The translations under genes were made by a program, and so were the position numbers. Shown piece after piece: positions 5,744 to 37,845 of a DNA stretch of 64,000 nt (its first letter is position 1; each line of letters starts with the position of its first letter). Under the pieces are notes generated by a model. The model searched no databases. It saw only the letters and a program-made list of their open reading frames with translations, and had not been told where the DNA came from. The stretch comes from Pristiophorus japonicus. Taxonomy: Eukaryota. Location: contig NC_091981.1 in the NCBI RefSeq assembly GCF_044704955.1, forward strand, positions 101,308,001 through 101,372,000. Reading direction: 5' to 3'.

Positions 5744-5904
5744 GAGTATTTTTAAGACCTCCATTTCAAGACCCTACTGTATGATTTGTCTGTCTCTGCA
5801 CCAGAGTAAATATCTTTCACTTTGCGCTTGTAAATACTGGACATGTTAGCTGTGGAATGGTGGACGTAGATGCACTGCAGTAAACCAAAGTGATATGACA
5901 CAAA

Positions 5905-8871: not shown

Positions 8872-8959
8872 AAACAAAAATTGCTGGAAATACTCAACAA
8901 GTCAGGCAGCATCTGTGGAGAAACAAGAGTTAATGTTTCAGGTCAATGACCTTTCGTCA
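8872..8959 (-). repeat. Penelope-associated short repeat with a degenerate hammerhead motif
   Basis: Minus strand: TGACGA a aggtc att gacct GAAAC; inverted relative of 11287-11412. Confidence 0.7.
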
Positions 8960-10862: not shown

Positions 10863-11286
10863 GGGTTTTGTTGGGACGGCTTTCTTCTTTTTCGTCTCAT
10901 TACTTTAAACACCAGATTACACTCATACACAGTTGTAGTAATGCAGAATCAGGTCTTTATTAAAACCTCATCCACAACCCGTATGAGCTGCTGCCGAGAC
11001 ATCACACTTCATGACTCCAGTGAGAGCTGAACAGTTGTTCCCTCATTTCTTAATACCAAATTTCACCTTTGATCAATACATTACATGCATACCAGCAATA
11101 AATCATAGTACAAATATGCACACGCCAACAGAACATAAACTAAACAGCACTAACCGATCTATTTTGCCATGATACTCTTCCCATTCCCCTAAACAGATAA
11201 GCAAGCTGATATATTCCAGATTGTATATAGCTGAATGACTAACACATTTTACTATTTTAGTCTCCTGTAAAGATAGCCTTGCTTTT

Positions 11287-11412
11287 AGTTCTGACAAAAG
11301 GTCATTGACCTGAAACGTTAAGTTTCTCTCACCATAGATGCTGCCTGACCTGCTGAGTATTTCCAGCATTGTGTTTTTTTCTCAAATTTCCAGCATCTAC
11401 AGTAATTTGCTT
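11287..11412 (+). repeat. Penelope-associated short repeat with a hammerhead ribozyme motif
   Basis: CTGACAA a aggtc att gacct GAAAC GTTA at 11291-11320. Confidence 0.75.
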
Positions 11413-11679
11413 TTAGGCCTGGTTAAAATTACTTACAATGCATGCTCAGCAGAAAGCAGTTTTAACTTTTTAACTCATCGTATGCTGGTCTCAGATTGTG
11501 CATTAGGAACATTTGAGGTACTTGGGTAATACGGACTTCCACTCCCACAGGTTTCAGCATCAAATTAGAGGCAGACAATCAAGTTCTGGAAGCGGAAGGA
11601 GGCATCTAGGCAATGGAGAGTTCATGGATGTGGAAGCTCAGCTCGGGGTCAGATAGAATGCTGAGGTTGAGTTTGGTCT

Positions 11680-12200
11680 GGTTCAGCCCAAAACAATGGC
11701 TAAGGAGGGACATGGAATCACAGCCAGGGTAGAATTTGCAGCCAGTACCTAAAACAATGGCTCAGTCTTTCCAATGTTTAATTGGAGGAAATTGTGGCTC
11801 GTAATGTGGCTCATTTACGACTAAATGTTGGAGAGCTGTCTGACAATAGAGCCAGTGGAGGGGTAGAGCGAGGTGTTGGTCAGTAGACATGAGAAGATGA
11901 ACTCAAGGATAGATCTTTGAGGGACTCGAGGCAAGTGTGCAGGGGAGGAAAGAAAGCTATTGCTGGAGGCGCTCTGGATACAATCAAAGACAAGAGTCGA
12001 ACCAAGTGAGAGCAGTCCCACTGAGCTGGAGAAAAGGAAAGGCATTGAAGGTGGTGATGTGATTGACCGTAACAGAATAAGCGAGAAATAATGCACCATT
12101 AAGGATGGCATTTTTGACTTTGGTTAGGGCCATTTTGTTGCAGAAAACCTGATTGGATAGATTCTAGCATGGAGTTGCAGTAAAGATGGCATGGATTCTG
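11680..12200 (-). mobile_element. Degraded LINE-2 RT relic
   Basis: Minus-strand remnant VPQRSIL. Similar purine-rich relics at about 9130-9520, 48440-48930 and 50640-51620. Confidence 0.5.
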
Positions 12201-14149
12201 CTTAAATGCTGAGTTGGCCCCAAACGTGCAGGGACAAGTAGGTTCCTCAAGTAACAAGCAGATAACCCGTCCCAGTAGGCACACATCTAAAATGCCCACC
12301 CACTGAAAGTCGCTCGCCCTCAGTCTGCTTTAAAAAGTGCCTGGACCTCTTCTACTATTCAGCAAGCTACTACACCTGGTTTCACTCAGCACACCAGCCT
12401 GTTTACATCCTGGAAGCCCCTGCCCCATCTCCTATGCTGCTGGTGCTTAGCAAAGGTTCTGTCCATGATAATACCCTCCATTCTGAAAAACTTTTAATTT
12501 TGAGATCTATCAAAAATATTAAGCTTTTTTTTTTAAAACTAGTAATTCCCTGTTAAACCATAGTAAGGAGTCAGTAATTTACAATGGGTGTCAATCTAGC
12601 AAGAAATTATTTTTCGAACTGAGCCCAGTCTGTACCTATTCACAGCAATTTTGATACACAGCTTTACTTTAGCAGAATAATACAATGTCCATTGCATGTT
12701 TAAATTTTAATGTTTGGTTTAGCTGAACTCTGGATTTCAGAGTAATATTTCAAAAGCTATCTGCATGACTGACTATATTTATCTCCTTTTATGCAATGAC
12801 GTTATCTTAATTCCCCTTTTAGGCTGTGAGGATACTACCTTGTTTTCTGCTATCTACAATGTAAATATCTTACCATTATAGCCAATTAGGTTGCCCGTTT
12901 CTCATATTCGGATGTTAACTTAATTTATATTTATTTAGTAGTACATTCCCATCAAGCCATGGTTTTAACAAAGGTTTAAATTAGGTTACTTCCAACAGTT
13001 AGGAACTTTGACCTACCTGTCCACTTTTATGTCTTGACCTGATGTTTCTGACTCAAGCTCAGGGTAGTTTCATCAGTGATAGCATTCTTTCATTGTACAA
13101 CTATGCACCATCATGCTTAGAATATAAAGGGAATGCTGTGTCCGAGTCGACTAGAGGCATTCCATGCCACCTTACAAAGCTGGAAATAGGTAGCAAGATC
13201 CTCTGGAGATCAGAACATTGACCACAAATCTGCCTACCATTCTGGCTTAGCAATTCATCTGGTACTGCTCCAGTTGAGGAACCAAGTTACTAATCAGTCT
13301 GGTTATTTTATGAGCATCAGTGTAAACTCTGACATTGCCTGTAGCATGTTTGCATGTGCGCAACAGTGTTAATCTACTTAAAAACTGACACTAGATCCAG
13401 GCAAAGTAGCACTGACAAGCTGCAATAGTTTCACCCAGTTTCTTAAAAAAAAGCATAATGACTAGGTGCAACCCAAATGGAATACACAATAGTTCAGTTC
13501 ATCTTGCTTAATTTCGCAGATGGGTTTCTTTTCCTCCAACAGCATGAGGTTTTATTCATTGCCTGCATCAATAAACCCAGATAGTAGATTCTTTAATTAA
13601 CATTTCCAAATAAAGTGTGATGACAAATAAAGATACACATTTATTGATGTACTGTACTGAATCTTAAATTTTTTTAACTTAATAAAGCAAAAAACAAAGA
13701 AAGCCAAATGTTCATAGTATCAAGGGAGAAATTGGACAGACAACTTAATTATGGAAATATGTACACCAAAGGAAGTGATCAAACAGAAACTGACAAAATA
13801 ATTTGCAACAGGTGGTTTGTCATATCAATCTCTGAATACATGTGTAGAGTTAGAAGTGGCCTATATAAACCACCATTGTCCTTTGGGCACTTCAGCAAAC
13901 CGCATCCATCATATACTTAATTTTCTTACAGTTCTCACGATTTCCACATCCAACCTGAGACCTTCAGTTGTTGAGATTACACATTTGAGAAAGATTGTAG
14001 CAATAGAATCTAAAATTCAATCTACAAAAATGTTTCTTTACACCCCTCAATTAATTGACGTTCTACCTGGGTTCACATGCAGCACATCCCACTTTTGAAA
14101 AGGAACAGAAGTACCTGTATAGAGGTTTGGAAGAACTGTGATTGTATAT

Positions 14150-14348
14150 ACATAGTAAGCTGTGCATAAATCAAGCGCAGACAGCGGAGGGAGCGTGCGG
14201 CAAATCAGGCTCCTCACCCACCCTTTCTTTCAACCACTGTCTGCCCCACCTGAGACTGTAATTCCCACATTGGACTGTAGTCACTTGAGAACTCGCTTTT
14301 AAAATGGAAGCAAGTCTTCCTCGATTCCGAGGAACTGCCTATGATGAT
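14150..14348 (+). mobile_element. RTE-clade LINE 3' end
   Basis: KRRQRRERAANQ...TTVCPT*DCNSHIGL*SHLRT resembles the RTE C-terminal Cys/His motif; (GAT)n tail. Confidence 0.75.
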
Positions 14349-14437
14349 AAATTGCAGACCAATAGCATCCAATTAGTTCTTAAATGATTCCAAGGCTTTT
14401 GTCTCCACCACTCTGTCTAGAAGTCCATTCCATGTAT

Positions 14438-15103
14438 CAGTAGTTCTCAAACTTCTTTGAAGGACCCCTTTTAAGATCAGTAAGTAATCACGGACCCCTT
14501 TTAAAATTGATTAGTAATCACAGAAAATACTATATAATACTCAATATGAAAGTGCTGTATGTAGTGTTTTAATAATGCTTTTAAGGAAACAGGTATTTAT
14601 TTACATATATCAGTGAGATGGGTGTGTCTGCTTCTCACCAATTCTGGGTACTCCACAGCAACAGGTGGCCACGATTAGCCACTTAGTTCTGGACAATTTT
14701 TAAAGCAGTCAGCAGGCTAGCCAAGGTGAGTAAGGGCACGAACACCCATGCACATGTTGGGATGCTGCTGGAAGCATGACTCACCTGCCATACTGTCCCA
14801 CTGGCATGTTCTGTAACAGCTGCACTGTGGGATTGTACGTGTTTGCGTGAATACGTCTAGGCACGTGTTTGAAGGGCCCTGCTCTGATGACGTTGGGAGG
14901 ACGGCACAGGGTCACGGCACCAGGAAGAGGAATCGGCTCGACTAGCAAGGAATGTCATTGCAAAGTGAGAACTGTAGGCCTGTGAGGAGGTGGGCTCAGC
15001 TGTTGAGAATAATTCATAAGAACTGAATCGTAGTCAGCTTTAGATAAGAGTAGGAGGCTTCAAATTACCTCCGGCCACAGACCCCTCAGTTTGAGAAACA
15101 CTG
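14438..15103. mobile_element. hAT (Charlie-like) non-autonomous element
   Basis: TIRs cagtagttctcaaact / agtttgagaaacactg and 8-bp TSD ccatgtat / ccatatat; inserted in an old CR1 fragment. Confidence 0.85.
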
Positions 15104-17592
15104 CCATATATCGATGAACTTCCTGATCTTAGTTCTAAATTTGCCGTTTGAATCTGTGGTCCCTTATTGTGCTCTTGCAACAGGTAATTTTCCACAATTA
15201 CTTTCCCCATGTAATTTATTACTGTTTGCCATTTCCATCCATTCACAGGACTTCCATAGATGACCATTAGTGGTAGTAACAGGTGATAAACTCGAAGGAT
15301 AGCAGTGTAGTGAGTGAAGTGCCACATCCCTCCTGCCTTATCACTAAATTAAGTAAATTGGAGTGTCTGATCAAAACTACCTTTAAAAACCTGTCACTGA
15401 ATTGAAAGCTATCAATTTATGGAATTCAGCATCTTTGTCAGTAACAGCCACGATCCATTGAATTCCATATCAGCTCCTGGAAAGGGAGAAAAAAATTATC
15501 ACAATCCAAATGTAAGTTCCACATTTCACAGAAATGAATAGTGAAGAGAATAAGCTATTTCAAATTATCAATAGATTATAATGGACTTTTCTATGGTGCA
15601 GATTCACAAATAAAAGTCCTCCTCAAATGATCATTCTCCATATGCAAGACTTAGATAGCAGGCACTCGTGGGGTATTTGACCAGAGACCCAATCTGGCCC
15701 GATTCTCTCCGAATCCAACATCCACTAGAAGAACATTTCCAACAGCGATCATTGGTTAAAAAAGAGAGAACAAAAACCTCAGTCAACGGATGCTTAGATC
15801 AACTGGTGGATCACCACCATCACTACTCCAGCTGGGATCAGCAAAAACTAGTCTTAACCAAGATCTCTTTGGCCCATACAGCTCAGCATTCCATTACAGT
15901 GAACTTACCCAGTGAAGCTTTGGAAAAACTTTTGTAAATTCATACAATCTGGAGATGCTTTTCTAGACACTTTTTCAATTGCACTTAAACCCCCAAGCTT
16001 AATTCCAGAAATAATCCCAAAACAGCATTAACTTTGTTACAGAATTGAAATTCAACGTCTAAATATTTTCTATATTTTTTCCAAAAAAGTTAGTGTTGAT
16101 CATATTTTGGCCAATTTTCTCCCCTATTCCCCTGAAATGAGTCAGAGAAAGTTTCCACGGCTATCAAGTACCCTCAAGTACTGTATTTTAAGTTATCTCT
16201 CTTCATATTTCAATCTAACAGTGAGTGCTGGAAAGTTCTGGGGTAAAGGTGGGGATGGGGGGCGGGGAGAAGGAAGAGAAGATAGGCAGAAAAGAGCACG
16301 ATTACAACTTTGTCCGATATTATCCATACCCACAATCCATACATGTACATTATACAGCTTGACTCCAATGCCAATTCCATTATATAAATGTAAGTCACTG
16401 TTCCTGAAACCACCCACCAATGCTCAAGATGAGATTATCAAACTTTTGCTCCACATGGCTTTGTAGTATAAGGAATGGAACCTATATTAAACAGGAATAA
16501 TTCCAGTCAAGGGGTCAATACAAAGTTTCATAGCGACTTATTGTCCTCTTCAACCACAAAAATGTTGCTAGTAAGTTCTAGCTTCCTACAATTTGCCACA
16601 AGCGAGTCCATTTGCCAGCTCAGGTTGTCCCCGTATATTTTTATTTTTAAATGCATGCATGCTATATTTGGTAAGTTTTTAAACTTTCTACTAATTAAAT
16701 CAATCTACTGATTATGAATACCAGCATATAATGCCCCCCAAAATCGGGAACATAGAAGACTGGCATTTCCCAACAGGAATAGCAGGGAAGGAAGCAAAAA
16801 GAATAGGCCACCCATCCCTCAAAGACATTAGACAAATTCAGTTCTGATTACTTGACGTTTGCTTGAGGAAGTGTTTCCATGACCCGAAGTCAAGTGGAAA
16901 TGTAAAAAAAACTGTGAATCTTAATTCAAAGATATAGCACATTTGCCAGCAAAAATAATAAACTTGGCTGTATGTTTATCTGATCTGGATGTTTCTTTTG
17001 ATTGAGTTAGGGTACTGACCCTCTTTCTTCACAACTCATCTCCCTTATTTTCCGAAATGTTTGCATTTTATTAAATCACAAGCACATTCCGCATTTAATA
17101 TTAATTTTAAATAGTTGCACATTGTTAAAGGCACATACGGCAAAGAATATAACTAGCACCAGCCAGATTCTAGGAGCGAATCTATTGCTGAAAGACATCT
17201 GGATGTTAATGCTCAGCTATTTTATCAATGATGTGAAATATTTTGTCTGTTTGGGACACTGGGTTGATTTACCAGAAAATCAGGATTCTGAAAATTTATC
17301 GTTAAAAAAAATTGGCTCAAGTAAGCTTCACTATACTAAGTCAAGTTTTAAAATAAGTTACATTTTCATTATACAAAGTTCTTCCCATGTGCTAAAAGAA
17401 AATAGCATTTTAACAAGGTTAGTGATACTCCAACACTAACTTGGCTTCTAGATCAGCAAGCATTGAATAGATTCTCTTAATTCTGACATGCCAAACCCCT
17501 TCAGTGCAATTTAATTATTCAAAATAATTCACGGTTCACTCTGAATGTTGCATTCAAATCAACGCTTATTGCTCAAGGTTCTGTACACTTAC

Positions 17593-17802
17593 CTACTTCA
17601 GTAGATAACAAAACTGATCATGTGGCTTTATAGCCAAGCTCACTGCCCTCACCACTGTGATTTCAGTTTCAGTGCAGCTCAGACCAGTTGATAGAGGTCA
17701 GACGCTGGCTGAGGATGGTTCTGATCACATGTGGAATGAAGTCTGGCAGCTCTCAGTTTAAGATCCAGTGGACAATCAACACCCACCTTCAGATACTATA
17801 AC
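17593..17802 (-). other. HNRNPA2B1: Non-coding 3'UTR exon (candidate NMD-isoform exon B, 210 nt)
   Basis: Acceptor ttttctgtgctatttaag|G and strong donor GAAGTAG|gtaagt. Confidence 0.6.
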
Positions 17803-18028
17803 CTTAAATAGCACAGAAAAGGTATTAGTTAAGCAAAAGAAACCGTAAGTTTTAAATTTTGCACAAAAAGGACTTGGTGTAGATATAAATTCCTACGAAC
17901 AAAATATATGGAGCTATGGAACGAATTGAAAATATAAAACAAACATGATCTAATAGTTTGCTATGAGCTATTATCATATTGACCACCTCTTCACTTCTGT
18001 AAAATAAGACAATTAAAGAATATCTTAC

Positions 18029-18450
18029 CTACATGAAGTTTAACTGATGCTTAGCTCTATTCTGCTCTATAAGACACATCTGTTTTCGTTGGCCTCCTCT
18101 TTAAATTTACTGCAGTTAAAGCTTTTGTTGCATGAATACCGCCCACTGTTACAAGAGTGCTCGCTGAAATTAGGCTTCTTTGTCCAGACTTCTTGTGCTA
18201 GACCTGTTTTCTTGAAAGTGTAAACCACTTGCTGTTTAACGCCGGATCATGCCTTTCCTGGCCGATGAAGTAGCTGCTGTATCTACAAGATCTAAGGATC
18301 TCTCCTTCTTGCAGAAACCACTCAGTTCTAGCAGTTTTTAATTCTGAGGACTTGAAGATTCGTCTCTGCACCTTTCGTCTGATTAGCAGTCCTTGCATTT
18401 CCCTGGCTGTGTCAAAGACTGAACATTTTACCCACCCATAACAAATCTAC
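18029..18450 (-). other. HNRNPA2B1: Non-coding 3'UTR exon (candidate NMD-isoform exon A, 422 nt)
   Basis: Acceptor gttttcttag|G and donor CATGTAG|gtaaga; not repetitive. Confidence 0.65.
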
Positions 18451-18474
18451 CTAAGAAAACAATTACACACCCCC

Positions 18475-18970
18475 TTTTCTTTTTTGGGGGGATTTTATTA
18501 AAGTTACTGGGACATACAACATTTTCCAAACTCTACACACTGCAAATATTTAACATAGGCTGAATATTACAACTCCATGATCATGGTTCTTATAGCTCTC
18601 ATAAAATTCTCAGTGCATCTAGGAATATTTAAATGTCAAAAAAAATCCCCTCAAACTCATAACAATTCCACATTGTAACTTATGTAGAACACTACAAAGA
18701 TACTACAGCAAAGAAAATTTTAAAAGCTAGAAATCTGTCTCCAAGGCATCTTTTACAGTCCTTTCTCCACATCAAGAGTCCGCTCAATTAAACAATCCCA
18801 AGAATTGACAAAATGGTTTTCTCTGCCTGTGCTCTGGAGTCTTCCGTCATCTCACTGCCTTTTTATGTTCCGCTGAGATAAATTTTTTCCTTAAAATTTT
18901 GCTGAGAGAATAACCTGCAGCTGTCCTGTAAACTCTGGGCTCTCATCCTCCCCTATTTATATAGTGATGC
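18475..18970 (-). other. HNRNPA2B1: HNRNPA2B1 main 3'UTR exon
   Basis: Acceptor gtaacag|GCATCACTATATAAATAGGGGAGGATGAGAGCCCAGAG resembles the recalled start of the human last exon. AATAAA at 18494-18499; the 3' end is approximate. Confidence 0.85.
18494..18499 (-). terminator. Proximal polyadenylation signal AATAAA of HNRNPA2B1
   Basis: TTTAATAAAAT on the minus strand, followed by a GU/U-rich stretch (gtgtgtaattgttttc). Confidence 0.75.
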
Positions 18971-19409
18971 CTGTTACAATAAAATAGAGGTAAACAGTAA
19001 GCAGCAGTTAATCATAAAAATCCAATGTTACTATCCATTTAAAACTGAAATGGTACAAAGCCCTCAAGAAGTGGTATGTTGAATGAACCTTGTTTTCCAG
19101 AACTAAGTTAGTTAAAATAAATTGTGGCTACATTATTCCTCCCCACACAACTTGCTACAATTATGAATAGTTTTGCATATCTAACTGGGGCAAGGATATA
19201 AAGGAAATGCATCTTTAAAAGATGTGAAATCCATTATTACTTGAAAGCTTCTGAGGTTCTAAGGATTCAAACATTACTAGCATCCGCAATATTTTGCTTT
19301 TGTATTAGAAGTAATTTTAAATTTTTGCTACTGGTACTATAAACAACAGTAACACATTCAGTAACAGGAATGTATCACAGACTTACCCTTGGAACGGGTT
19401 GTTACTGAA

Positions 19410-19462
19410 TTAGTATCTGTTACGGCCACCAAATCCACCACCGCCTCCACCACCGTAGTTTC
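19410..19462 (-). CDS. HNRNPA2B1: hnRNP A2/B1 last coding exon (exon continues to donor at 19387)
   Basis: ctctag|GA AAC TAC...AAC AGA TAC TAA = GNYGGGGGGGFGGRNRY*, resembling the A2/B1 C-terminus GGRSRY. Donor AAGG|gtaagt lies 23 nt after the stop. The spliced CDS totals 975 nt with an open frame. Confidence 0.95.
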
Positions 19463-19509
19463 CTAGAGTCAAGATGATATAAAATTGCATTAATACAATT
19501 CCATTTTAG

Positions 19510-21639
19510 ATGACCAAAAAATTGATTAAAAGGGTAAAAAATGAGAAAACTAGCAAGAAATATAAAAATAGATTGTAAGAGCTTCTACAAGTATGAAAAA
19601 AGGAAGAGAGTAGCAAAAGTAAACGTTGGTCCCTTCGAGGCCGAGACAAGAGAAATTATTATAGAAAATAAGGAAATGGCAGAAACGGTAAAACAAATAT
19701 TTTGTATCTGTCTTCACAGTAGAAGACACAAAAAGCATACCTAAAATGGTGGGGAACCAAGAGTCGAATGAGGTTGAGGAACTTCTAGAATCCATTATTA
19801 AGGAAGTGGTATCAGGGCACTTAGAAAATCATAACTTGATTAGGCAAAGTCAACATGGCTTTATGAAAGGGAAATAGTGTTTGACAAATTTATGAGTTTT
19901 TTGAGGATGTAACTAGCAGGGTAGATGAAGGGGAACCAGTTGATGTAGTATATTTGGATTTCCAAAAGGCATTCAATAAGGTGCCACATAAAAGAGTATT
20001 ACACAAGATAAGGGCTCATGGGATCGGAGGTAATGTATGAGCATGGAGAGGACATGTTAACGGACAGAAAACAGAGAGAAGGGATAAACGGATCTTTTTC
20101 AGGTTGGCAGGCTGTAACTAGTGGGGTATCACAAGGATCAGTGCTGGGGCCCCAGTTATTTACAATCTATATTAATGACCTAGATGAAGGGACCGAGTGG
20201 AATGTATCCAAGTTTGCGGATGATACAAAGCAAAGTGGGACAGTAAGTTGTGAGGAGAACACAAAGGGATGGATTTTTGGCTTTCTCTGTTAAAATTACC
20301 GTTTTCGCTCCGTTACCGATTTAAGGCCTAACTTTTGGCATTTGGGGTTTGCGCAGCGCAAAAAGAGGCATTGCACTATTATTCGGGGCGCAAAAACGCG
20401 ATTCTCGCCAATTTTAGTACGGGGCCAGGAGGGCTGCGAGAGGGGCCTGGGGGGGGAGGGGAAATCCAGAAAACATTACCAAGACCCTTACCTAACAAAT
20501 CGCTGCAAAAAAACTTTAACTTATCTTTCTTTCAGGTTTTCCAACTTACTGCTGCTGGCAGCGCTGACTGCTAGGTTTTACCTGGTAGTTTTCGGGGCGC
20601 AGCGTACGAGTCGGGTGAGTGCCGAAACTCGGACGGTAGCGCAATCCGAGTCATTCCACCCCCTGTGCAGCTCTCCCCGGCAGTGCTTCCAAGCGCCGCT
20701 GCAAAAAAGGAACAGAGGATCATGACCGGGTTTCCGCCGGGAAGGGTCAAAACGCTGCAAAAACCCGGTCGCAAACCACCCGAAAAGAGTCTGCAAAGGG
20801 ATAGAGATAGACTAAGTGAGTGGGCAATAAGGTGGCAGATGGAATATAATGTAGGGAAATGTAAGATTATTCACTTTGGTAGAAACACAGTATTTTTTTA
20901 AATGGAGAGAAACTTTTAAATGTTGGTGCTGAGAGATTCGAGTGTCCTCGTGCAGGAAACACAAAGTTAGTAAACAGGTACAGCAAGCAATAAGGAATGC
21001 AATTGGCATGTTGGCCTTCAAAGGGGCTGGAATACAAGAGTAAGGAAGTCTTGCTACAATTGTACAGGGACTTGGTGAGACCACACCTGGAGTATTATGC
21101 AGTTTTGGTCTCATTATAGGAAGGATATACTTGCCTTTGAGGCAATGCAACAAAGGTTCACTGGATTGATTCCTGGGATGAAAGGGCTGTCTTATGATGA
21201 GAGATTGTGCAGAATGGGCCGATATTCTCTGGAGTTTAGAAAAATGAGAGAGGGGTGACCTCATTGAAACATACAAGATTCTGAAGGGCATTTACAAGGT
21301 AGATGCCAAAAGGTTGTTTCCCCTGGCTGGAGTGTCTAGAGCTAGGGGGCACAGTCTTAGGATAAGGGGTAGGCTATTTAAGACAGATGAGGAGGAATTT
21401 CTTCACTCAGAGGGTTGTGAATCTTTGGAATTCTCTGCCCCAGAGGGCTGTGGATGCTGAGTCTCTGAGTATATTCAGGGCTGAGATATATAGATTTTTG
21501 GAGTCTCGGGGAATCAAGAGATACGGAGAATGGACGGGAAAATGGAGTTGTGGTCATTGATCAGCCATGATCTTATTGAATGGCGGAGCAGGCTCGAGGG
21601 GCCGTATGGCCTACTCATGCTCCTACTATGTTCTTATGT
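19510..21639 (+). mobile_element. CR1 ORF2 fragment and 3' end in HNRNPA2B1 intron 9
   Basis: [24 protein letters not shown]...SKFADDTK; tail ctatgttcttatg. Confidence 0.92.
20266..20782. mobile_element. GC/CpG-rich MITE-like insertion within CR1
   Basis: The CR1 sequence gaggagaacacaaa|gagtctgcaaaggg is split by about 517 bp with GGG...CCC ends. Confidence 0.7.
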
Positions 21640-26385: not shown

Positions 26386-26625
<240 letters not shown>

Positions 26626-27802
26626 TCATAGGGGCCCTTTTCTGTGTGTAGGAAAGGTGATTGGAGACTGCATTGTCCTTATTCAAATATTACAAAGACA
26701 ACTCTGCTCCCGTATTTTTTTTTAAAAAGATATCATACGGAAATATTTTTATTGACATTGCAGATAAGATCAATTACATACACTAATAAGCAAATCCAGA
26801 ATGTAAGCTGCTCTTGCAGGACATTTAGTAGTCAAACTTTAAAACATATACATTTACTTGATCCTGGAGAACTCGGGACATAATTAAGCAGTGCTAGAGT
26901 GGTGGTTTCAGATACAATTGTTCTCTCCCTCCTCCAGCCCACTCCCAACATTCATGATGAGTTAAATCACTGAGAAGTACCATCCAATAGCTAGACAAAA
27001 TTGGAGCAAAAGATCTGTCCCCAAGTCACCCACCTGCTTAAATTTCCACAGAAAAGCAGTCATATTTTTGATGGATGGAAAGCAGTTGCTGGGAGGAAGG
27101 AACAAAGTGACTGCCTTGCAGGAATTCCATTTAAATAGTAAACTGAGATCTATTTTTAACCAGCCTTGTGCTTGTTTAAACAATATGAAAATGTACATTG
27201 GAAGACTATTCTAACTTGCAGCAATAATGTCCAAATTTTCACATTTCACATAAGGTTCTTACTGGAGCCGCACACTTGGTGTTGAGATGTTAGGATTCTT
27301 CAATTTTTGTTCGAGAATATAATTTTCTCTGCTTCATTTAACTTCACTCCAAGCCCTTTTCTCATTCACCTCAATTAGCTGCCAGGAGGGAAAGGGTGAT
27401 CCGAGTATAATTCTTTTGCTTCAATTCTTTCCGATTATGGGATAGTCCGACCCTATCGCCCATCCTCTATGATACTGCAGTTTCAGCAACGATTTAGGTA
27501 GCCACATCAGTGTAACTATTTGTACTGCACTTTTTTTTTGAGACATGTGTCTATCAAGCACCCCCCACCCCCCCATGCCCATACTGCACTTTTTGACAGA
27601 CAAGCGCTTGTCAAGCCCCATCCCCATGCTGCATCGGTCAAGCGCGCCCGGTCAAGCTACGCACACCCCCGCCCCCACATCATTCCCTCTATGTGGTGCC
27701 GAGAAGCAGGACATGAGGCCCAAGACTCCGCTGAGGCCCAGACTCGCTCCTCCCCAACTCTTCCTCCTTCCCCCCCCACGACCGTCTTCCCCTGCTCAGT
27801 CC

Positions 27803-28367
27803 NNNNNNNNNNNNNNNNNNNNNNNNNNNNNNNNNNNNNNNNNNNNNNNNNNNNNNNNNNNNNNNNNNNNNNNNNNNNNNNNNNNNNNNNNNNNNNNNNN
27901 NNNNNNNNNNNNNNNNNNNNNNNNNNNNNNNNNNNNNNNNNNNNNNNNNNNNNNNNNNNNNNNNNNNNNNNNNNNNNNNNNNNNNNNNNNNNNNNNNNNN
28001 NNNNNNNNNNNNNNNNNNNNNNNNNNNNNNNNNNNNNNNNNNNNNNNNNNNNNNNNNNNNNNNNNNNNNNNNNNNNNNNNNNNNNNNNNNNNNNNNNNNN
28101 NNNNNNNNNNNNNNNNNNNNNNNNNNNNNNNNNNNNNNNNNNNNNNNNNNNNNNNNNNNNNNNNNNNNNNNNNNNNNNNNNNNNNNNNNNNNNNNNNNNN
28201 NNNNNNNNNNNNNNNNNNNNNNNNNNNNNNNNNNNNNNNNNNNNNNNNNNNNNNNNNNNNNNNNNNNNNNNNNNNNNNNNNNNNNNNNNNNNNNNNNNNN
28301 NNNNNNNNNNNNNNNNNNNNNNNNNNNNNNNNNNNNNNNNNNNNNNNNNNNNNNNNNNNNNNNNNNN
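27803..28367. other. Assembly gap (565 N) flanked by C-rich and G/GA-rich low-complexity sequence
   Basis: Run of N. Confidence 0.99.
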
Positions 28368-29002
28368 GGGGGGGGGGGGGGAAGAGAGAGAGAGATATGG
28401 GGGGGGGGGGGGAAGAAGAGAGAGAGAGACGGACGGGGGGGAGAGACGGACGGACGGGGGAAGAGAGAGAGAGAGAGAGACAGAGGCAGCTGGGGGGGGG
28501 GGAAGAGACAGAGACTGACTGGGTGGGGGCGGCTGCACCTGCACTGGGATAAGGCACTTTGGCTGGGGGAGGGATGCACATGCGCTTGGGTAAGGCACCG
28601 GCTGGGGGAGGCATGCACTTGGATTGGGGTAAGGCCCTTGCTGTCTTCTGTTGCTTCAGGAAGTCAGAGTGGATCGAGTTACAATTTGCAGTCCAAGACC
28701 TTGGGATGGGCGGTTCCAGTTACACATTCCTGTGAAACTTCAGGGTTATCCTCTAAGGGGACCAAAGACAAATGTGGATCATGTACAAAGCGCATCCTTA
28801 ACTAATTGACAATTTTATTCAAACATAAATTGGAAAGAAATATTCCCCATCATTTGAATTCTGTATTAAAGGTGGTGCACCACCACCATAATGCACCTGA
28901 ATGCAGCAGTAATTGGCGTAATGCCAGCCACGTTGTTTCACATACTTCAGAGTGACCACAAAGGTTTCTCAAATTTCTCAGCAGCAGTAGCAAAGTACTC
29001 AC

Positions 29003-29083
29003 CACCATAATTTCCACCTCCATCATAGCCACCACCCTGGTTGCCAAATCCACCACCAAATCCAGGGCCTCCAAAGTTACCAC
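29003..29083 (-). CDS. HNRNPA2B1: hnRNP A2/B1 exon 8 (Gly-rich)
   Basis: ttttaag|...|gtgagt, 81 nt, GGNFGGPGFGGGFGNQGGGYDGGGNYG. Confidence 0.92.
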
Positions 29084-29809
29084 CTTAAAAATAGAACACA
29101 CATTGAATAGCTTATCCAAATCAACCAATTATCTAAAGTTGGTGTGAGATCATAAGGTAAGATACAACAGCCTGAGCTAAATCTGTTCAATAAAAACAAA
29201 TCCTGAAATTACTTAAGTATATAGATAAGTTTGTGTTTGGAAGTAAAGACAAGAAAGGCAGAAACACACAAGAATGCAGTTATTTTACACATAATTTGCT
29301 AGATCATTTAGCAGTTAAATAGGTTTGAAAACAATTAATTTGCAACTTAATTATAAGAATGTAATGGTATGTGGAGGTCACAAACATGGAACTGAACTAA
29401 TCACTGGTCTTCCAGTCTACGGATCGGGTCACACCGGGATGAATAGTAACAGAAAAATGCTATCACTATTGCTCAATTGGAAACTTTTTTCCAAATTCAG
29501 GTCATTATGGGACATATTTCAAAATTGCAAAAAGTTTGGGGTCAGAGCCTCAAGATACATATACAAAGGATATTTGGACATTTTTCAGTTAAGTGCACTA
29601 TATTGTGGTACAGTTCAATCTGAAATTTACAAGTTACTTCTGACCAACAATCAAAAAAATTAGTAACTCCACCGAGTAACGGCCTTACAGACCAAAAAGA
29701 AATCTAGCATATGCCACACTACCCGATTCGAGTTGACAGCAGTTGAACTGCTACAATTGGTGCCAGTAAGTCATTTTTGGAGGGAATGTGGGGAGATAAT
29801 GGAAAAGAA

Positions 29810-30770
29810 TAGAACTATACAAGTTCACAGCACAGGAGGCAGCCATTCGGCCCATCAAATCTTCATTAGGTTTTTGCTATAACAATCACTCATCATCTCA
29901 CTACCCTCCCCCTCTTTTCCTTTCCAATATTTATCCAATTCTCCCTTCAAAAGGTGCAAAGGCCTCTAACTGTGGCAAAACATTCCATGTTCCAACAATC
30001 TATTTTGAGTAAAGAAATTTTTCCCAGTATCTCTCCACTCTCAGTGACAGATGACTCCATTATCACCGACTCCCCAGGAGTAGATAGTCTTGCCTTGTTC
30101 AACTGTTTTCTTATCTTTCCATCCACATCATCCTGGTGAATCTCTAAGATTAATGTCTTAAACGGGGTGCTCAAAACTGCACAGTTCTTCAATTGTACCC
30201 TAAACAAAGTTTTGTATAAACTTCGTACTTTTTGACACCATTCCTCTTTTACAAAACACCAAATTCTATTGGTCATTATTGGCTTTTTTTCTACTTGTAC
30301 TTTCAGGGAATCATGTATTCCCATTATTTATCCAACTGGTCACATCTTCAAAAGAAACTCTAAATGCTCACTAATTTTATCTCAAATTATAGATCCCAAG
30401 TATTTACTCACAACTGAAACTGGTCGATAGTTACCCAGTTAATCCTTCACTCCTTTTTTGAAGATGTTAAGATTGTTTCCTTCCTTCTAGTATCATGTTC
30501 AAATCTGCACAGCTAGAGATTTGAAAAATTGTGGTCATAACCTGTCATCCCCTCTGATTTGCTTCACAGCTTAGGGTGCATACCATCAGGACCGGGTGAC
30601 GTCAAACAAGATCTGTTCATTCTTTCGTAACAAATTCCTTTCCAACAGTTATTTCTAACAATTGTTCCACATCTTTCTCGAATACACCTCCATTCTCACT
30701 TCCATAATTTACAAAAACTGAAAATATTTGATATCATCCTGAAGTCCTATTTAGTGTTTCCCTCTGTCAA
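29810..30770 (-). mobile_element. Old degraded CR1
   Basis: Reverse-complement tail gccattcggcccatc; remnant SLYKTLFRVQL. Confidence 0.55.
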
Positions 30771-31123
30771 TTATCCTTGCTTTAACCCATCATCTTTCAT
30801 GCTATTCTCAGTTTCTGCCATTTATCTCTCTCTCAAGCTGCTCTCTATTATTGCTGCTATTGTTCAGTCAAGCTCTAGCCCCCAATAGCTATCCAATGAC
30901 ATGATGAAAGTGCACCCGGTGGACATAATCAAGGACGGGAACCAGGCTCTGCTACATCAAATAGCCCGCTAACACAAATCAACTCATGAATGGCACTTGG
31001 GCGAAGTACCAGGAGGAATCCATGGAACCATATTCCAGTTCCAATTCAACATCAGAGACAGGAAAAAAAAATAAATGGAAGAGAAAAATTGGGCGAGAAA
31101 GACCAGTTTAAAAAAAAACATAC

Positions 31124-31186
31124 CGCTTCCACTATAACCATTGAAACCAGGACCATCGCCAAAACCACGACCACCCCCAAATCCAT
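31124..31186 (-). CDS. HNRNPA2B1: hnRNP A2/B1 exon 7 (Gly-rich)
   Basis: tcacag|...|gtatgt, 63 nt, NGFGGGRGFGDGPGFNGYSGS; preceded by an 85-nt intron. Confidence 0.92.
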
Positions 31187-31271
31187 CTGTGACAGAAAAA
31201 CATTGTTAAAACATCTTAAAATAACAAATTTTAAATTTAATTTAATAAGCAAATACATTTTCAAAGCTTAC

Positions 31272-31349
31272 TAGGGCCGCCTCCAAAGTTTCCTCCACGT
31301 CCCATAGAAAAATTGCCACTTCCACGGGAGTCTCCTCTAAATCCACCAC
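31272..31349 (-). CDS. HNRNPA2B1: hnRNP A2/B1 exon 6 (RGG region)
   Basis: gacag|...|gtaagc, 78 nt, phase 1-1, GGGFRGDSRGSGNFSMGRGGNFGGGP. Confidence 0.92.
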
Positions 31350-31631
31350 CTGTCATTAACAATACTTGTTACTTTCATTTTGAAGCAATAATACCAAGGA
31401 GACTTCACAAAATCAAAACAGGTTATATTTCATCAGAACATTCTAAATTATAACTCAACAGTGCACACAAGCCTTGATCACAACCACATTTAGGGTCAAA
31501 TCTCTTATGTAATTTCAATGTTTCTTTTGAATTTTAAAATAAATGTTTTAGGAAAAAGGCTTTCTGTATGTTTAATAACAATAGTAAAAAAGAGGATAAA
31601 AAATTGTCCAAACTGTCTCTTGTTCAGATTA

Positions 31632-31751
<120 letters not shown>

Positions 31752-31866
31752 TTATAACAAGAGTAATGCACTGAAGCTACTGAGAAATTATACAGCTATA
31801 AGTATGATCTACTAATAAAGTGTGTGAAAACAATGTAAATCATTTGTGACATTGCTGTAAAAGTTA

Positions 31867-32082
<216 letters not shown>

Positions 32083-33107
32083 CTAAAAATTGAAAAGAAA
32101 TCAATTTTATTCACAAAATTCAGATATCACCTATGTGCAAACTGAATCAAAGTAAACCAGACTACTGCATCAATACATATTTTACTGAAAGGCCAGGATT
32201 CTTGTTTCTTCCAATCTTTATTGGAAAATGCACGTGACCATTGGGTGAAAATAGGATTTGCCTCTGCTGTGATGGATCTGAGCCAATTCTTTTGAGAAGG
32301 GGAAAAAAAGTGTCACCAAAAAATTGCGGTCACCTTAAAAAGAAAAAGCAGTGGACACCATCGTTACAAGTTTTGCATCACTGGGCATATTTCACCACTG
32401 CTGCACATAAGGCCTTGATATGTAGACTCCATTGTCAGTTCTTGACTAAATGAAGGCATGCAAGATTTTAATTAAAAGGTATAAACGGTACAGGGTCTAA
32501 AGAGAATGAAGCTAGGGGTTTCATACATGAAATCGAGCTAATTAATGAGAAAGATCACACCTACTTAGATAATCAAACATTCCTCAATCAATAATTCAAT
32601 TCAATAATAGGAATATACAAATATGTTGCAAACTGTGCAGGTGGAATTCCTGTATGGGGTCTAAATAAGCGAATCTACATTTGAGAGCACTGTAATCACC
32701 CTGCTCTATTAGCTTAAGATAATGCTGCAACATATACCCACAGAAAGTACTTTGCAAAACTCTCACTGATACTAGGCCACAACACAAGTTGATCTCTCAT
32801 GACCAGCAACTTTCCTTAATCATCCCTGACCAGCCAACACAAAATTATTCAAAAAACAAATAGAATGAGAAGTATTTAATTCATTATATATATTCCTTTC
32901 AATTGAAGATTCATGTAACCTAAATTAATAAAACTCATACAAACTGCATTTCTTATGCTCTGGAACAAGGTGGGTCAACCCCAAGGAGGGGTTACTAATT
33001 CCAAAAGCCAAGTTAACAGGATGACTTGTGGACAAACATTCCACCTGCTTGATGCACAACACACAGGGAAATGTTGCTGCTTTTTAAAAGGAAGATTTAT
33101 TATTTTA

Positions 33108-33323
<216 letters not shown>

Positions 33324-33919
33324 TCATGCCGTAACACATTTGAATACAAGTATAACAAACTAATATCTGTATTTTTACATTAATACATTAGAAGTGTTCA
33401 TGGATAGGCTGGGTTTAGTTGATAGCCTAGTTCTTTGAAGGTCACAGTTCAAGTACTCCCTTGGTCAGCATGTAGCCTAAACAGACACACCCAGTTTCAG
33501 GCTACTTCCTGCTCGAACTTTTCCCACCATTGAGTAACTTTTTCCAAGCCATTGCCAAAGGTCAGAAAAACCAGCAGAATGTGACTGGCTATATCTTCTT
33601 GAATATTTAAAAAATATATACGGTTGTTCAGTTGTGACTTGTTGAACATTTTATATAAAGTGCAACACAAAAATAGAAACAGTCTAAAGGCATATTCTCT
33701 CTCATATCATTTCTTAGCTGTTATAGTAGGCAATCTGACCCTTCCTCCCAAAATCAGAGTGAAGACACATTTGAGCTTGGGAACCAAGTGGTATTATTCA
33801 ACAATTGCATTAACAATCTCAATTGGTCATTATTCCATTACTCTTATGAAGGACAGTGATCACCATAAGACTATAAATTATTCTTTCTATCTCAAAACCT
33901 GATCTGTGCAATCTTTTTA

Positions 33920-34057
<138 letters not shown>

Positions 34058-34619
34058 CTAGGGGAAGAGAGATTTTTAATTAGACGTGGCACTCATTTCC
34101 TTTAATAGCTAGAATACCTGCAAATCTAGTACATAAATGGAGAGAATATTGTCGCACTGGGAGGACAGTAGTTCTAGGGCAAAAGCATATTGGGGAGGGT
34201 TACAGGATGCTACGAAAAAAACAGTAACTATTTCATCAGTGAGTGGTCAGTGAAGCCAAAGGCACAGGTACTTGGCAAGGTTGACTTCTTAAATCACTAA
34301 CTTGGTGAGACCTGTAGCTGAATATTTATTTTATAAAATACATGCACATTTGCCCATTGTTGGAAAAATCCTTTCAATATATCCCCTCCTTCTGCTGTGA
34401 CTGGACCCCAATCTGGCCTCACAGTTGGGAGCCAATATCTGCATTTCTTAAAAAGATTTTCACAGTAATGTGAAATGCCTGTACTATTTAAAATAAGATA
34501 AAAAGGGAAACAGGTACAGAGGTTTTTTAAAGCATGAAGCCTGTGAAGGATTTTGCCAAGATTACACTACAAATTCTGGAGGATAGTTAGAAGCTATCTT
34601 GTTTTAAATCAGGACCCAC

Positions 34620-35400
34620 ATCTACACGAACACCTACCTCTCTCAACCACTCCACTGCCTGTTATAATGCTTGTCTGACATCCGGCCCTGGATGAGCCAC
34701 AATTTCCTCCAATTAAAAATTAAGACCAAAACCATTGTTTTAAGCCTTTGCCACAAACTAATTTCCCTCACCAAGCTGAACTTCCATCCCCATAACCACC
34801 TACTTTCACCTCCATCAACATTAGCGCCTCAAACCTTGCTTCAGCTTATCTGTTGCTCAAACTCTCATCCATGCTGTTATCTCCAGACTCGACTATTCCA
34901 ATGCTCTCTTGGCCAGCCTCCCATCTCCCACCCACCATAAACGATCTCATTCAAAACTCTGCTGCCTGTGTCCTATACCACATCAAGTCCTAGTCATCCA
35001 CCATCGCTGTGCTTACTTGACCTACATTGGAGCCCAGTCCACCAACACCTCAAATTTAAAATTCTTATTCTCACGTTTAAATTCTTCTATGGACTTGCCG
35101 CTCTCCATACTTCTAATCTCCTACAACCCTCCAAGAAATCTGCATTGCTCTAACTCCGGCCTCTTGTGCATTCCCCACTCCCTTCGCCCCACCAATGGGA
35201 ACCATGCCTTCAGCCATCCAAGCCCTAAGCTCTGGAATTCCCTCCTTAAACCATTCTTGCCTTCTTTCAGATGCTTCTTAAAACTGACCACGCTTTTGGT
35301 TATCTGTCCTAAGATCTTTGGTGGAGTGTCAGTTTTAGTCTGATTATGCTCCTATGAAGTGTCGAGACATTTTATGACGTTAAATGAGTTATATAAATCC
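34620..35400 (+). mobile_element. LINE-2 3' region
   Basis: LSDIRPWMSHNFLQL...LHWSPVHQHLKFKILILTFK followed by the LINE-2 tail. Confidence 0.8.
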
Positions 35401-36299
35401 AAACTATTGCTGATAGCATGGTATGGTCTTTATTTTATATTACGTAAATATGGGGCGTGTGGATTAAATTAGCAAATGCAGCTCACGAGGAGATGCTGCT
35501 GTGAATCATCGTTCAAGTAGATATAGGATAGCGTGGGTGAACTCGTACAAAAACCTTTATATGGAAATGACATAAAGCAAGACGACATACATGCGAGATT
35601 TGAATTTGAGACAGTAACCAAACAGATTGATTTGTATTATACATTTACTATTCTCATGGCAGGAAAATTAATAAAATCTTTGTCAAGACTTTAAAAAATG
35701 AAGTGTTAAGTTTTTAAAATCAAATGGGAGTACTGCAACATTAGCTAAGGAAAATTGCACAACATGGCATGAATTTAATAAAAGTTATACATTGGAAGAC
35801 AACCTGGAATTTGATTTTTTTTGACACATATGTTCAAAAACAAGCAGAAAAGCGTGACTCCTTTGTTAGACATATGTAAATGGTGATGCAGACAATAAAT
35901 AAATCAGATTGTCTCATTGTTCACAGTCTGTCAGATATGTAATAGAGGGGGGGGGGGGTATTATACCATGTAACAATGCTAAGGTAGACTGGCACCCCAC
36001 AAGGCACTAAAGTAATTAAAAGATCAGCTCTTTCTGCTAAAAGTGGTAGCATTTAAGTTGTAGGTCAATTTAAGACTACAAAGTGCAAATCAGAGCTGGA
36101 TTAAGCACCAAGAATGTTAAGCCCTCAATCCCACCCCCCAGGTCATATGGAATATGCACTCCACAAGCCTAATCACACACTCTCCAAGAGCCACATTTCC
36201 ACCCCAGTTCAGTAATGCAACAATGTGCTGGAACAGAGTCTGCAGCAGGGAGGAAATCTGGCACCTCCTCACTCTAGCAAATTATGTTCTCCCATACCT

Positions 36300-36730
36300 T
36301 TACATGGTCCATGTCTGACTTCCCTTACCAGAATTATGCTCACACCCCTCCTGATACAATCCTAGTCTTTACCTTCCACATTCGACAAATCTTTCCAACA
36401 TGGTCCCACCACCTCCTTCCCACTTCTGAAGGGACTGTTCCCTCCATCACATCCTGGTTCACTCATTACAACAATGATTTTACATTGCTCTAATTCTACA
36501 TTAATGTTCCTAGGTTACAACAGTAACTACTCTCCAAAAGTACTTCATTTGCTGTAAAGCGCTTTGAGATGTCCGGTGGTCGTGAAAGGCACTTTTTATA
36601 TCGACATGTTTTTCTTTCACTCTTGCATCAACCCTGCCACCCATGTTCCTTCCCATACAAATACATCTCCTATACCAGTGTAAGGAATCCAAACACATCT
36701 TTCAGCTGAGACAGCAATTTGTGCACGTTC
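36300..36730 (+). mobile_element. Penelope-like element relic interrupted by a LINE-2 tail
   Basis: Remnants LVFTFH, RDCSLHHILVH and KHIFQLRQQF resemble the Penelope region upstream of GIY-YIG. Confidence 0.45.
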
Positions 36731-37839
36731 TCCTTAAAACCTTTGGTCACCGGTCCTAATATCTCATGTGGCTTGGTGTCAAATTTTGTTTTAGAACACT
36801 CCTGTGAAGTGCCTTGGGACGTTTTACTACATTAAAGACACTATATAAATACAATGTTTCTTCAACCCAATATACCCCATTTACTGCTCACTATACAGTC
36901 TCCACGGAGCAAATGCTCATGTTTTTTGCCCTTTATGTTGTTCCAATGAAGCTGAACACAAGCTCCATGAATTACAGCGTAACTTCTATTACGCACTATA
37001 ATATTGATTTTAACAACTTCAGGAGGAAGTGGTCATGTGGGGTAGATGTGTCAACATTTCCCAGGGATCAGGGAGGGGGCAACAATGATAGGACCATGCT
37101 TGATGTTGGAACACTTCTCTCAGGCTCTTGCAGTCTGTTTGACTTTGGCAGTTTTCATGTTTCTATTTCTACCCATTTCAAGTTGCCCCTTAGTCAAATT
37201 TGAAGTCTCCCTACCTGCAATCCTCTTTCACCAAACCGTTCCCGCCGCCCCGCGCGGAGCTTTGAAAGTAGAAAAGACAGTCTCGAGGAAGCTTTAATAA
37301 ATACGTGTACATTTCTGTAAAAGTACATTGAACCAAAAGCGTTCACTCTGTACTTGCCTTCCACTGAGCCTTTGCTCAAAGAGTGGGTGTGTTGCAACTT
37401 TTGGTGAAGCCAGACCTTCTGGACCGTACAATAAACTCATCGAAAATATAGAATGTTTGGGGTTAAACTGGTGACCGTTTACTAAAATATTGGGAGCCAT
37501 CCTGAAATGTGGCGAGCGCTCGAGCTTCTCAAACCTGGGACGACTTTCTCTGGACATCGCGGGCTAAAATAACTGCAAACGCGATGGGGCCCCGAGCGGG
37601 CAAGTTGTCGAAGGTCTAAAGTTAACCAAATGTGTCTCAGCGAAGGCGTCGAGATTTTTATTTCGATCTCGACGTACTCTCACTTACTGGCTCAGTGGGA
37701 AACGGCTCAGCCTGCGAACGGACTTGGTGTTCAATTCACTTCCGTTATCAGCGCGACATACCTGTGTTTTTTCAATCACAGAGTTCAAAATTTTACATTA
37801 AAAATGCACCACCCCAACCCTCTTTTTTTAATCCCTTAC

Positions 37840-37845
37840 CTCCAT
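37840..37845 (-). CDS. HNRNPA2B1: hnRNP A2/B1 coding exon 1 (ATG GAG = ME)
   Basis: Minus strand reads gcaggATGGAG|gtaagg. The 6-nt coding first exon matches vertebrate HNRNPA2B1; it lies in the CpG-rich region and splices in frame to the next exon. Confidence 0.85.

What the first reader, a model, noticed from the sequence alone, without database searches (positions are those of the whole stretch)
15300..19410. Multi-exon 3'UTR: an apparently ancient splice/poly(A) NMD switch on HNRNPA2B1
Seen: after the stop (19410) the first junction is only 23 nt away, which would not trigger NMD. The UTR exon has an internal donor CAG|gttatt at 18915, 79 nt past the stop. An acceptor at 18450 sits only about 45 nt beyond the AATAAA, overlapping the expected downstream poly(A) element. 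Further exons follow at 18029-18450 and 17593-17802, with a strong acceptor at 15476. This block is nearly free of transposons in a transposon-saturated locus. Known: human hnRNP A2/B1 autoregulates through NMD-sensitive 3'UTR splicing, and junctions more than 50-55 nt past a stop trigger NMD. Inference: the whole feedback architecture predates the chondrichthyan/osteichthyan split, with poly(A) use competing against 3' splice-site use.
Basis: partly seen in the sequence, partly recalled or inferred. Interest (0 to 1): 0.75.

Follow-up and report, generated by a model that had tools for sequence, protein, structure and literature searches.

The report
Shark HNRNPA2B1 spliced 3'UTR decay switch
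In this cartilaginous fish, RNA that runs past the first poly(A) signal of HNRNPA2B1 has an intron spliced out far behind the stop codon, a layout matching the known human one, so it likely marks surplus mRNA for decay and likely dates from the ancestor of jawed vertebrates.

Summary
Real, but simpler than first read, and already known in human. The gene is an elasmobranch HNRNPA2B1. RNA contigs show two UTR introns: 19387>18970, 23 nt after the stop, and 17593>15476, 1401 nt after it, the latter in 7 of 7 runs laid (6 organism labels, 6 studies). The proposed junctions 18915>18450 and 18029>17802 were not seen: contigs cross 18450 and 18029 unbroken in 7 of 7, so 18970-17593 is one read-through exon (1378 nt; human 1346 nt). 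A skip from 19387 to 17802, which would cut out the poly(A) signal, is inferred in 2 of 7 runs; human has such a skip. Donor 18029 probably pairs with 18257 (229 nt, the length of the human cassette exon). The exon differs 2-5% between runs, against 10-16% for the distal intron and last exon. A rattlesnake gene model matches 18325-18160 (0 of 150 shuffles). Decay and autoregulation are inferred from human data (PMC3091714), not tested. The block is not uniquely repeat-free.

The parts
26445..37845 (-). Coding exons 1-9 of HNRNPA2B1 (two RRMs and glycine-rich region); 324 aa with the last coding exon
   Evidence: Open frame from GT-AG exons; best PDB hit hnRNP A2/B1; exon 4 is 96-100% identical to shark and ray A2/B1-like proteins, 91% to chimaera, about 84% to tetrapods; exon lengths 147, 211 and 102 equal human
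19387..19462 (-). Last coding exon; stop codon 19412-19410, then 23 nt of UTR to the donor
   Evidence: laid contigs
18971..19386 (-). UTR intron a (416 nt; human 156 nt); too close to the stop to trigger decay under the 50-55 nt rule
   Evidence: joint in X1, X2, X11, X22, X23; loose end in X7; human coordinates; a skate protein model reads across the same junction
17593..18970 (-). Read-through UTR exon, 1378 nt (human 1346 nt), strongly conserved over its whole length
   Evidence: single contigs in X1, X11, X14; 1.9-4.7% divergence against 9.5-15.7% for the distal intron and last exon
18494..18499 (-). Proximal poly(A) signal AATAAA, likely end of the normal mRNA
   Evidence: sequence; contig break at 18487/18516 in X22 with depth 2303 against 31.7 is only a hint, as contigs cannot show RNA ends
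18909..18918 (-). Donor-like CAG|GTTATT at 18915; weak, no use seen
   Evidence: rank 27 of 287; crossed by single contigs in 6 of 7 runs
18447..18458 (-). Acceptor-like AG at 18450; no use seen
   Evidence: rank 17 of 336; crossed by single contigs in 7 of 7 runs
18029..18257 (-). Candidate cassette exon, 229 nt, predicted counterpart of the human 229-nt UTR cassette; inclusion not seen
   Evidence: equal length and offsets +714/+942 against human +689/+917; strong donor (rank 4 of 287); snake match spans the acceptor; no junction in 7 runs
18160..18325 (-). Stretch homologous to an amniote sequence (UTR translated as the tail of rattlesnake gene model P0107)
   Evidence: best hit in 19386-14400; 0 of 150 and 0 of 100 shuffles reach it
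17593..17802 (-). Distal 210-nt exon, entered at acceptor 17802, probably from donor 19387 (inferred skip that would remove the poly(A) signal)
   Evidence: contigs break at 17803/17774 in X2 and X7, with an unlisted 30-nt third piece; the break position fits donor 19387 and not 18915, 18029 or 26445; human skip into a 136-nt exon; most conserved piece, 1.9-2.4%
15477..17592 (-). Distal UTR intron, 2116 nt (human final intron 532 nt); splicing leaves a junction 1401 nt (or 233 nt with the skip) after the stop
   Evidence: GT-AG joint in 7 of 7 runs; distances
14574..15476 (-). Last UTR exon; 3' end uncertain (AATAAA at 15220-15215 and 14601-14596)
   Evidence: strongest acceptor of 336; X23 contig's implied end 14574, X22's 14319; 10-16% diverged

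Best explanation
This is the elasmobranch HNRNPA2B1 3' UTR, in which read-through RNA splices out a distal intron (17593>15476) far behind the stop codon, likely making it a target of nonsense-mediated decay and likely serving as the gene's self-limiting feedback, as shown for human. Shown: intron a, 23 nt after the stop, and the distal intron are spliced; 18970-17593 is one conserved exon in the RNA. Inferred steps: (1) normal mRNA ends near AATAAA 18499 and carries only the near junction, so it is stable; (2) if that site is passed, or cut out by splicing 19387>17802, donor 17593 joins 15476 and leaves an exon junction complex 1401 or 233 nt after the stop; (3) UPF1-dependent decay removes that RNA; (4) excess hnRNP A2/B1, and perhaps A1, shifts the balance towards step 2. 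A rare 229-nt cassette (18257-18029) is predicted as a third route. The layout is inferred to be inherited from the last common ancestor of jawed vertebrates.
For: Distal GT-AG joint in 7 of 7 runs from 6 studies. Human rows with the same order of parts: 1346-nt UTR exon, 229-nt cassette, skip into a distal exon, final intron. Offsets from acceptor a differ by +25, +25, -42 and +32 nt. The tail of the published human frameshift peptide, which reads across junction a, has its best match of 126,756 window positions at the start of the UTR exon (6 of 10 in genomic frame; 7 of 10 across the junction). A human junction-a primer matches best at 18833 (6 of 200 shuffles). Snake match at 18325-18160, beyond the poly(A) signal. 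Conservation: Fisher p 3e-6 to 8e-14 against alignable intron in the 4 runs tested; at most 4.3-7.2% even if every difference lay beyond the poly(A) signal. Human evidence: junction b rises 3.5-fold on UPF1 knock-down and 20% on A2 over-expression (PMC3091714).
Against: No decay-blocked or over-expression data for any cartilaginous fish were reachable. Sequence homology of donor 17593 and of the last exon to amniotes was not shown. The two human junction-b primers have no significant match (151 and 34 of 200 shuffles reach their scores). The camel model tail that holds both primer sites has no significant place (10 of 100 over the region; 8 to 171 of 200 over 7 segments). A whale tail matches 17691-17677 only weakly (20 of 500). 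UAG-type motifs are not enriched (TAGG 3 against 4.2 expected beyond the signal; 1 of 8 motifs reached p 0.04). In five runs of other organisms the distal spliced contigs are about as deep as the proximal ones, which would be odd for a decay target. However, those runs were found by holding this stretch, and contig depth is a poor measure. The skip is inferred, not listed as a joint.
Confidence: 0.7

Rival explanations
1. The spliced long form is a stable or nucleus-held alternative 3' UTR isoform. The exon is conserved for protein or microRNA binding, localisation or CCR4-NOT-type decay, not for decay triggered by junctions.
For: Distal spliced contigs reach depths comparable to proximal ones in X1, X2, X7, X11 and X14 (weak: selection and contig depth). 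Conservation covers the whole 1.4 kb, not just splice sites. An intron-less reporter study found A1/A2 cross-regulation through the 3' UTRs (PMC8068773 passages).
Against: In the two runs nearly identical to the window the distal joint contig is 23 against 2721 and 55 against 770. The human counterpart responds to UPF1 loss. The most conserved piece is the distal 210 nt next to the donor.
Confidence: 0.17
2. One reading: 18915>18450, 18029>17802, 17593>15476, with acceptor 18450 competing with the downstream poly(A) element.
For: All sites exist. 18029 and 17802 are strong sites. Human has a minor cassette-to-distal-exon junction like 18029>17802. Decay could hide such forms.
Against: No such joint is listed, and contigs are unbroken over 18450 and 18029 in 7 of 7 runs. 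The break at 17803 does not fit donors 18915 or 18029. 18450-18029 would be 422 nt against the human 229. The human annotated internal donor is at +38, not +56.
Confidence: 0.07
3. Leaky read-through with chance splicing at strong sites; the likeness to human is coincidence.
For: The last exon and distal intron diverge at 10-16%. No amniote match was found for the distal donor or last exon.
Against: Same junction in 6 organism labels; 3- to 4-fold lower divergence beyond the poly(A) signal; snake homology; matching exon sizes.
Confidence: 0.06

Closest known systems
Human HNRNPA2B1 3' UTR splicing coupled to nonsense-mediated decay, autoregulatory (McGlincy et al. 2010, PMC3091714; coordinates from PMC10623736 supplements)
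   Same: Orthologous gene; harmless junction close to the stop (21 nt inferred for human, 23 here); long UTR exon 1346 against 1378 nt; final intron far from the stop; skip from the stop exon into a distal exon; a 229-nt internal segment ending at a donor; high conservation.
   Different: Introns longer here (416 against 156; 2116 against 532). Distal exon 210 against 136 nt. The human +38 donor lacks GT here. Cassette use not seen. Decay and feedback untested. The paper reports conservation to chicken only.
TARDBP (TDP-43) 3' UTR autoregulation
   Same: An RNA-binding protein whose 3' UTR holds unproductive splicing events (PMC6547761 passage). That one such intron removes a poly(A) signal is recalled, not from a call; it resembles the inferred 19387>17802 skip.
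   Different: Different gene and binding motif; no binding region shown here.
SFPQ distal 3' UTR switch and SRSF2 3' UTR introns
   Same: Switch to a distal, spliced 3' UTR that is a decay target (PMC6547761, PMC7764535 passages).
   Different: Here the coding sequence is unchanged; the choice lies wholly after the stop.
Deeply conserved poison exons such as Smndc1 (PMC11357089, abstract)
   Same: Very old autoregulatory decay elements in splicing regulators.
   Different: Those carry a premature stop in a cassette exon and reach further back (plants to mammals), so an age of the jawed-vertebrate ancestor is not exceptional.

Membership tests
HNRNPA2B1 3' UTR AS-NMD circuit | Gene is an HNRNPA2B1 orthologue | tested here: met
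   equal exon lengths; HP1/CBX-type gene head to head (motifs and the human arrangement are recalled)
HNRNPA2B1 3' UTR AS-NMD circuit | UTR junction under 50-55 nt after the stop, at the human position | tested here: met
   23 nt; joint in 5 of 7 runs plus one loose end; human peptide and primer match
HNRNPA2B1 3' UTR AS-NMD circuit | A spliced junction more than 55 nt after the stop | tested here: met
   17593>15476 in 7 of 7 runs; 1401 nt
HNRNPA2B1 3' UTR AS-NMD circuit | That junction is the same site as the human final intron | tested here: inconclusive
   position fits (+1378 against +1346); no significant sequence match at the donor or last exon
HNRNPA2B1 3' UTR AS-NMD circuit | Three additional UTR exons with cassette and skip forms | tested here: inconclusive
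   skip inferred in 2 of 7 runs; cassette predicted by length and snake homology, seen in 0 of 7
HNRNPA2B1 3' UTR AS-NMD circuit | High conservation of the UTR beyond the first poly(A) signal | tested here: met
HNRNPA2B1 3' UTR AS-NMD circuit | Distal isoform rises when UPF1 or translation is blocked | not testable with these tools
   only assembled contigs without library records
HNRNPA2B1 3' UTR AS-NMD circuit | hnRNP A2/B1 level drives the distal splicing | not testable with these tools
   motif counts gave no enrichment; binding not measurable
Poison cassette exon | Alternative exon whose inclusion is seen and triggers decay | tested here: inconclusive
   no inclusion junction for 18450-18029 or 18257-18029 in 7 runs; contigs drop rare forms
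Known structured RNA family (Rfam) | Match at gathering score | tested here: not met
   one chance hit, 21.8 bits against 60, in 14000-20000

The most novel reading that the evidence does not exclude
All three human routes to decay (distal intron after read-through, a skip that cuts out the poly(A) signal, and a 229-nt cassette) were fixed in the ancestor of jawed vertebrates. Poly(A) choice is the main switch, and in some sharks and rays the spliced long form is a major, regulated isoform that escapes decay, rather than a trace product.
Probability: 0.2. Interest if true: 0.6.

Novelty: new member of a known kind. Interest (0 to 1): 0.38.

Why it matters
It moves the known HNRNPA2B1 feedback layout from amniotes (reported to chicken in PMC3091714) back to cartilaginous fishes, roughly 420-450 million years (date recalled). 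It also points to which pieces selection has kept: the read-through exon, the distal 210 nt and a 229-nt segment, but not the distal intron or last exon. That narrows the search for the cis elements through which a disease gene (myopathy, ALS) limits its own level. It is not surprising for a splicing regulator, since older cases are in print (PMC11357089).

Tried and rejected
No whole genome is held for this window, so paralogues could not be compared. No listed run is on record as RNA; their spliced GT-AG joints are what mark them as RNA. An 18-nt UTR pattern in metagenomes gave 34 loci; none extends beyond the pattern, so all 34 are chance. UAG/UAGG binding-motif enrichment: not found (8 motifs in 6 regions; two reached p 0.03-0.04 uncorrected). 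Folding 4 stretches: the C/G hairpin over the cleavage region z -1.4, a hairpin upstream of 18257 z -2.0, others 0.45 and -0.27; none is convincing. Rfam: nothing. tblastn of 120 proteins against the UTR: only noise. Of 12 protein tails back-translated, one matched with 0 of 100 shuffles (P0107) and one with 1 of 100 in the repeat-like part near 14763 (P0006, not followed); 10 did not match. Six tails tested against the read-through exon gave 2, 6, 8, 36, 65 and 88 of 100; none accepted. Camel and bird tails rank acceptor 18257 first of 323 AG sites, but the camel tail does not align over the 229 nt (57 of 200), so this is treated as chance. The snake tail found no other protein. An HMMER search with a UTR frame found one unrelated-looking hit. 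A paper search with recalled human coordinates returned 57 papers, and the 20 listed are unrelated. Three look-ups of earlier scan findings gave nothing.
Full report
Identity. Ten GT-AG exons from 37845 to 19410 on the minus strand give an open 324-aa frame with two RRMs and a glycine-rich tail. Exons 3 and 4 hit hnRNP A2/B1 ahead of A1 in the PDB. Exon 4 is 96-100% identical to shark and ray A2/B1-like proteins, 91% to chimaera and about 84% to tetrapods (best 120 of 1224 hits seen), so the window is from an elasmobranch. Exon lengths 147, 211 and 102 equal human. An HP1/CBX-type gene lies head to head on the plus strand (motifs and the human arrangement recalled).

Observation. Donors 17593, 19387 and 18029 and acceptors 15476, 18970 and 17802 score high; 18915 and 18450 do not (simple matrix; some true coding acceptors score as low). 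The block 14349-19509 has no self-BLAST repeat hit, but the coding cluster 28430-34693 is a longer such gap. Only 23% of the window is covered (lower bound), so the claim is true but not special.

RNA evidence. One search listed 24 runs; I laid 7 (X1, X2, X7, X11, X14, X22, X23; 6 organism labels, 6 studies), all as assembled contigs. X22 and X23 are 99-100% identical to the window. Joint 17593>15476 is present in 7 of 7; in X1 and X2 it is reported 7 nt shifted, with the matching letters between. Joint 19387>18970 is present in 5 of 7, as a loose end in X7, and is not listed in X14. No joint at 18915, 18450 or 18029 is listed (one search shows all 14 joints, hides 7). Single contigs cross 18450 and 18029 in 7 of 7 and 18915 in 6 of 7. 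So in these samples 18970-17593 is one exon. Rare forms can be lost in contigs.

An unlisted path into 17802. In X2 and X7 the contigs break at 17803/17774, a 30-nt overlap. The bin depths need a third 30-nt piece (about 59 in X7 in both calls, about 8 in X2). The contig upstream runs unbroken to 18971, so the path comes from further up. Only donor 19387 predicts a break at 17803; 18915, 18029 and 26445 predict 17804, and the same rule gives the observed 18971 for junction a. This skip is an inference. It would excise the proximal AATAAA and leave the distal junction 233 nt after the stop.

Conservation. Counts copied from the laid pieces: read-through exon 1.9-4.7% different, distal intron 9.5-15.7% (alignable pieces only, so an underestimate), last exon 10.1-15.7%, intron a 3.9-8.7%. 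Fisher p is 3e-6 to 8e-14 in the 4 runs with distal intron pieces. Even if all differences lay beyond the poly(A) signal, that part would differ by at most 4.3-7.2%.

Comparison with human. McGlincy et al. (PMC3091714; abstract, passages, parts 3-4 of the main section and primer rows seen; Additional file 3 unreadable) describe three extra UTR exons, a harmless junction a, and a final intron that rises 3.5-fold on UPF1 knock-down and 20% on A2 over-expression. They report similar structures in mammals and chicken. Supplement rows of PMC10623736 (rows only) give hg38 coordinates: intron a 156 nt, UTR exon 1346 nt, cassette 229 nt, skip from the stop exon into a 136-nt exon, a donor at +38, final intron 532 nt. 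Offsets from acceptor a, human against window: 689/714 (18257), 917/942 (18029), 1211/1169 (17802), 1346/1378 (17593). 18257-18029 is exactly 229 nt, whereas 18450-18029 is 422. There are 33 AG sites 150-460 nt upstream of 18029, so an exact length match alone has roughly a 1 in 10 chance. The human +38 position has no GT in the window.

Sequence homology with bony vertebrates. (a) The human frameshift peptide that reads across junction a (PMC9050844 passage) matches the start of the UTR exon, best of 126,756 positions, with the same stop. A junction-a primer matches best at 18833 (6 of 200 shuffles). (b) The tail of rattlesnake model P0107, apparently translated UTR, aligns at 18325-18160, best in 5 kb, with 0 of 150 and 0 of 100 shuffles reaching it. 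It spans acceptor 18257, where the snake residue is compatible with a kept AG. It was 1 of 12 tails tried. (c) Against: the junction-b primers and the camel tail that holds them (a near-identical tail stands in narwhal and bat models) have no significant place, and a whale tail matches the distal exon only weakly. So the read-through exon is shown to be shared with amniotes at two places. That donor 17593 is the human final donor rests on position.

Mechanism. Shown: both introns are spliced, and the exon between them is under strong selection beyond the poly(A) signal. Inferred from the 50-55 nt rule and the human experiments: cleavage near 18499 gives stable mRNA; read-through or the skip, followed by 17593>15476, gives a decay target; surplus A2/B1 favours the latter. 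In X22 and X23 the distal joint contig is 23 against 2721 and 55 against 770 for junction a. In the other five runs distal and proximal contigs are of similar depth. Contig depth is a poor measure and those runs were selected for holding this stretch, but it keeps open a stable long isoform (rival 1). No enrichment of UAG-type motifs and no convincing structure was found, so the cis elements are not located.

Novelty. Searches (listings seen) returned no report of this UTR layout in cartilaginous fishes; subscription journals and most supplements are not covered. Further passages seen: PMC7780684 (four human UTR isoforms by long reads), PMC8068773, PMC5688624, PMC10470013, PMC7764535, PMC6547761; PMC11357089 abstract and outline; PMC13158149 supplements, no hit. 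Verdict: a new, older member of a known circuit, with a corrected exon map; interest 0.38.

Noticed in passing
window 45115-63200 (+): HP1/CBX-family gene head to head with HNRNPA2B1 (chromodomain and chromoshadow peptides). CBX3 by recalled synteny; not tested against CBX1.
   Followed up: partly
window 1-14400: Two recalled bZIP motifs of the NFE2L3 type were not found in the window, although that gene is recalled as the downstream neighbour in human. An X14 contig runs 5076 nt beyond 15119 and may be a long UTR or a join with a neighbour.
   Followed up: no
window 15116-15168: A 53-nt island in the otherwise diverged last exon is kept in X7 and X11 (4-5 differences), just past AATAAA 15220-15215.
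   Followed up: no
window 18942-19275: Intron a is more conserved (3.9-8.7%) than the distal intron and may hold regulatory elements.
   Followed up: partly
window 18468-18491: A C-run/G-run hairpin could cover the expected cleavage region just after AATAAA; z -1.4, not significant.
   Followed up: partly
window 18264-18330: Predicted hairpin just upstream of acceptor 18257, inside the snake-homologous stretch; z -2.0, 10 of 200 shuffles.
   Followed up: partly
window 28999-29003: Two GT sites 4 nt apart at the end of exon 8; only 29003 was used for the open frame.
   Followed up: no
window 37840-34057: A 6-nt first coding exon is followed directly by the RRM1 exon; no equivalent of the human 36-nt B1 exon was looked for.
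   Followed up: no
window 27803-28367: Assembly gap of 565 N in the intron between exons 8 and 9.
   Followed up: no
P0030, P0035, P0090, P0107, P0112, P0121, P0122: Several public amniote A2/B1 protein models end in what looks like translated 3' UTR, probably annotation errors.
   Followed up: partly
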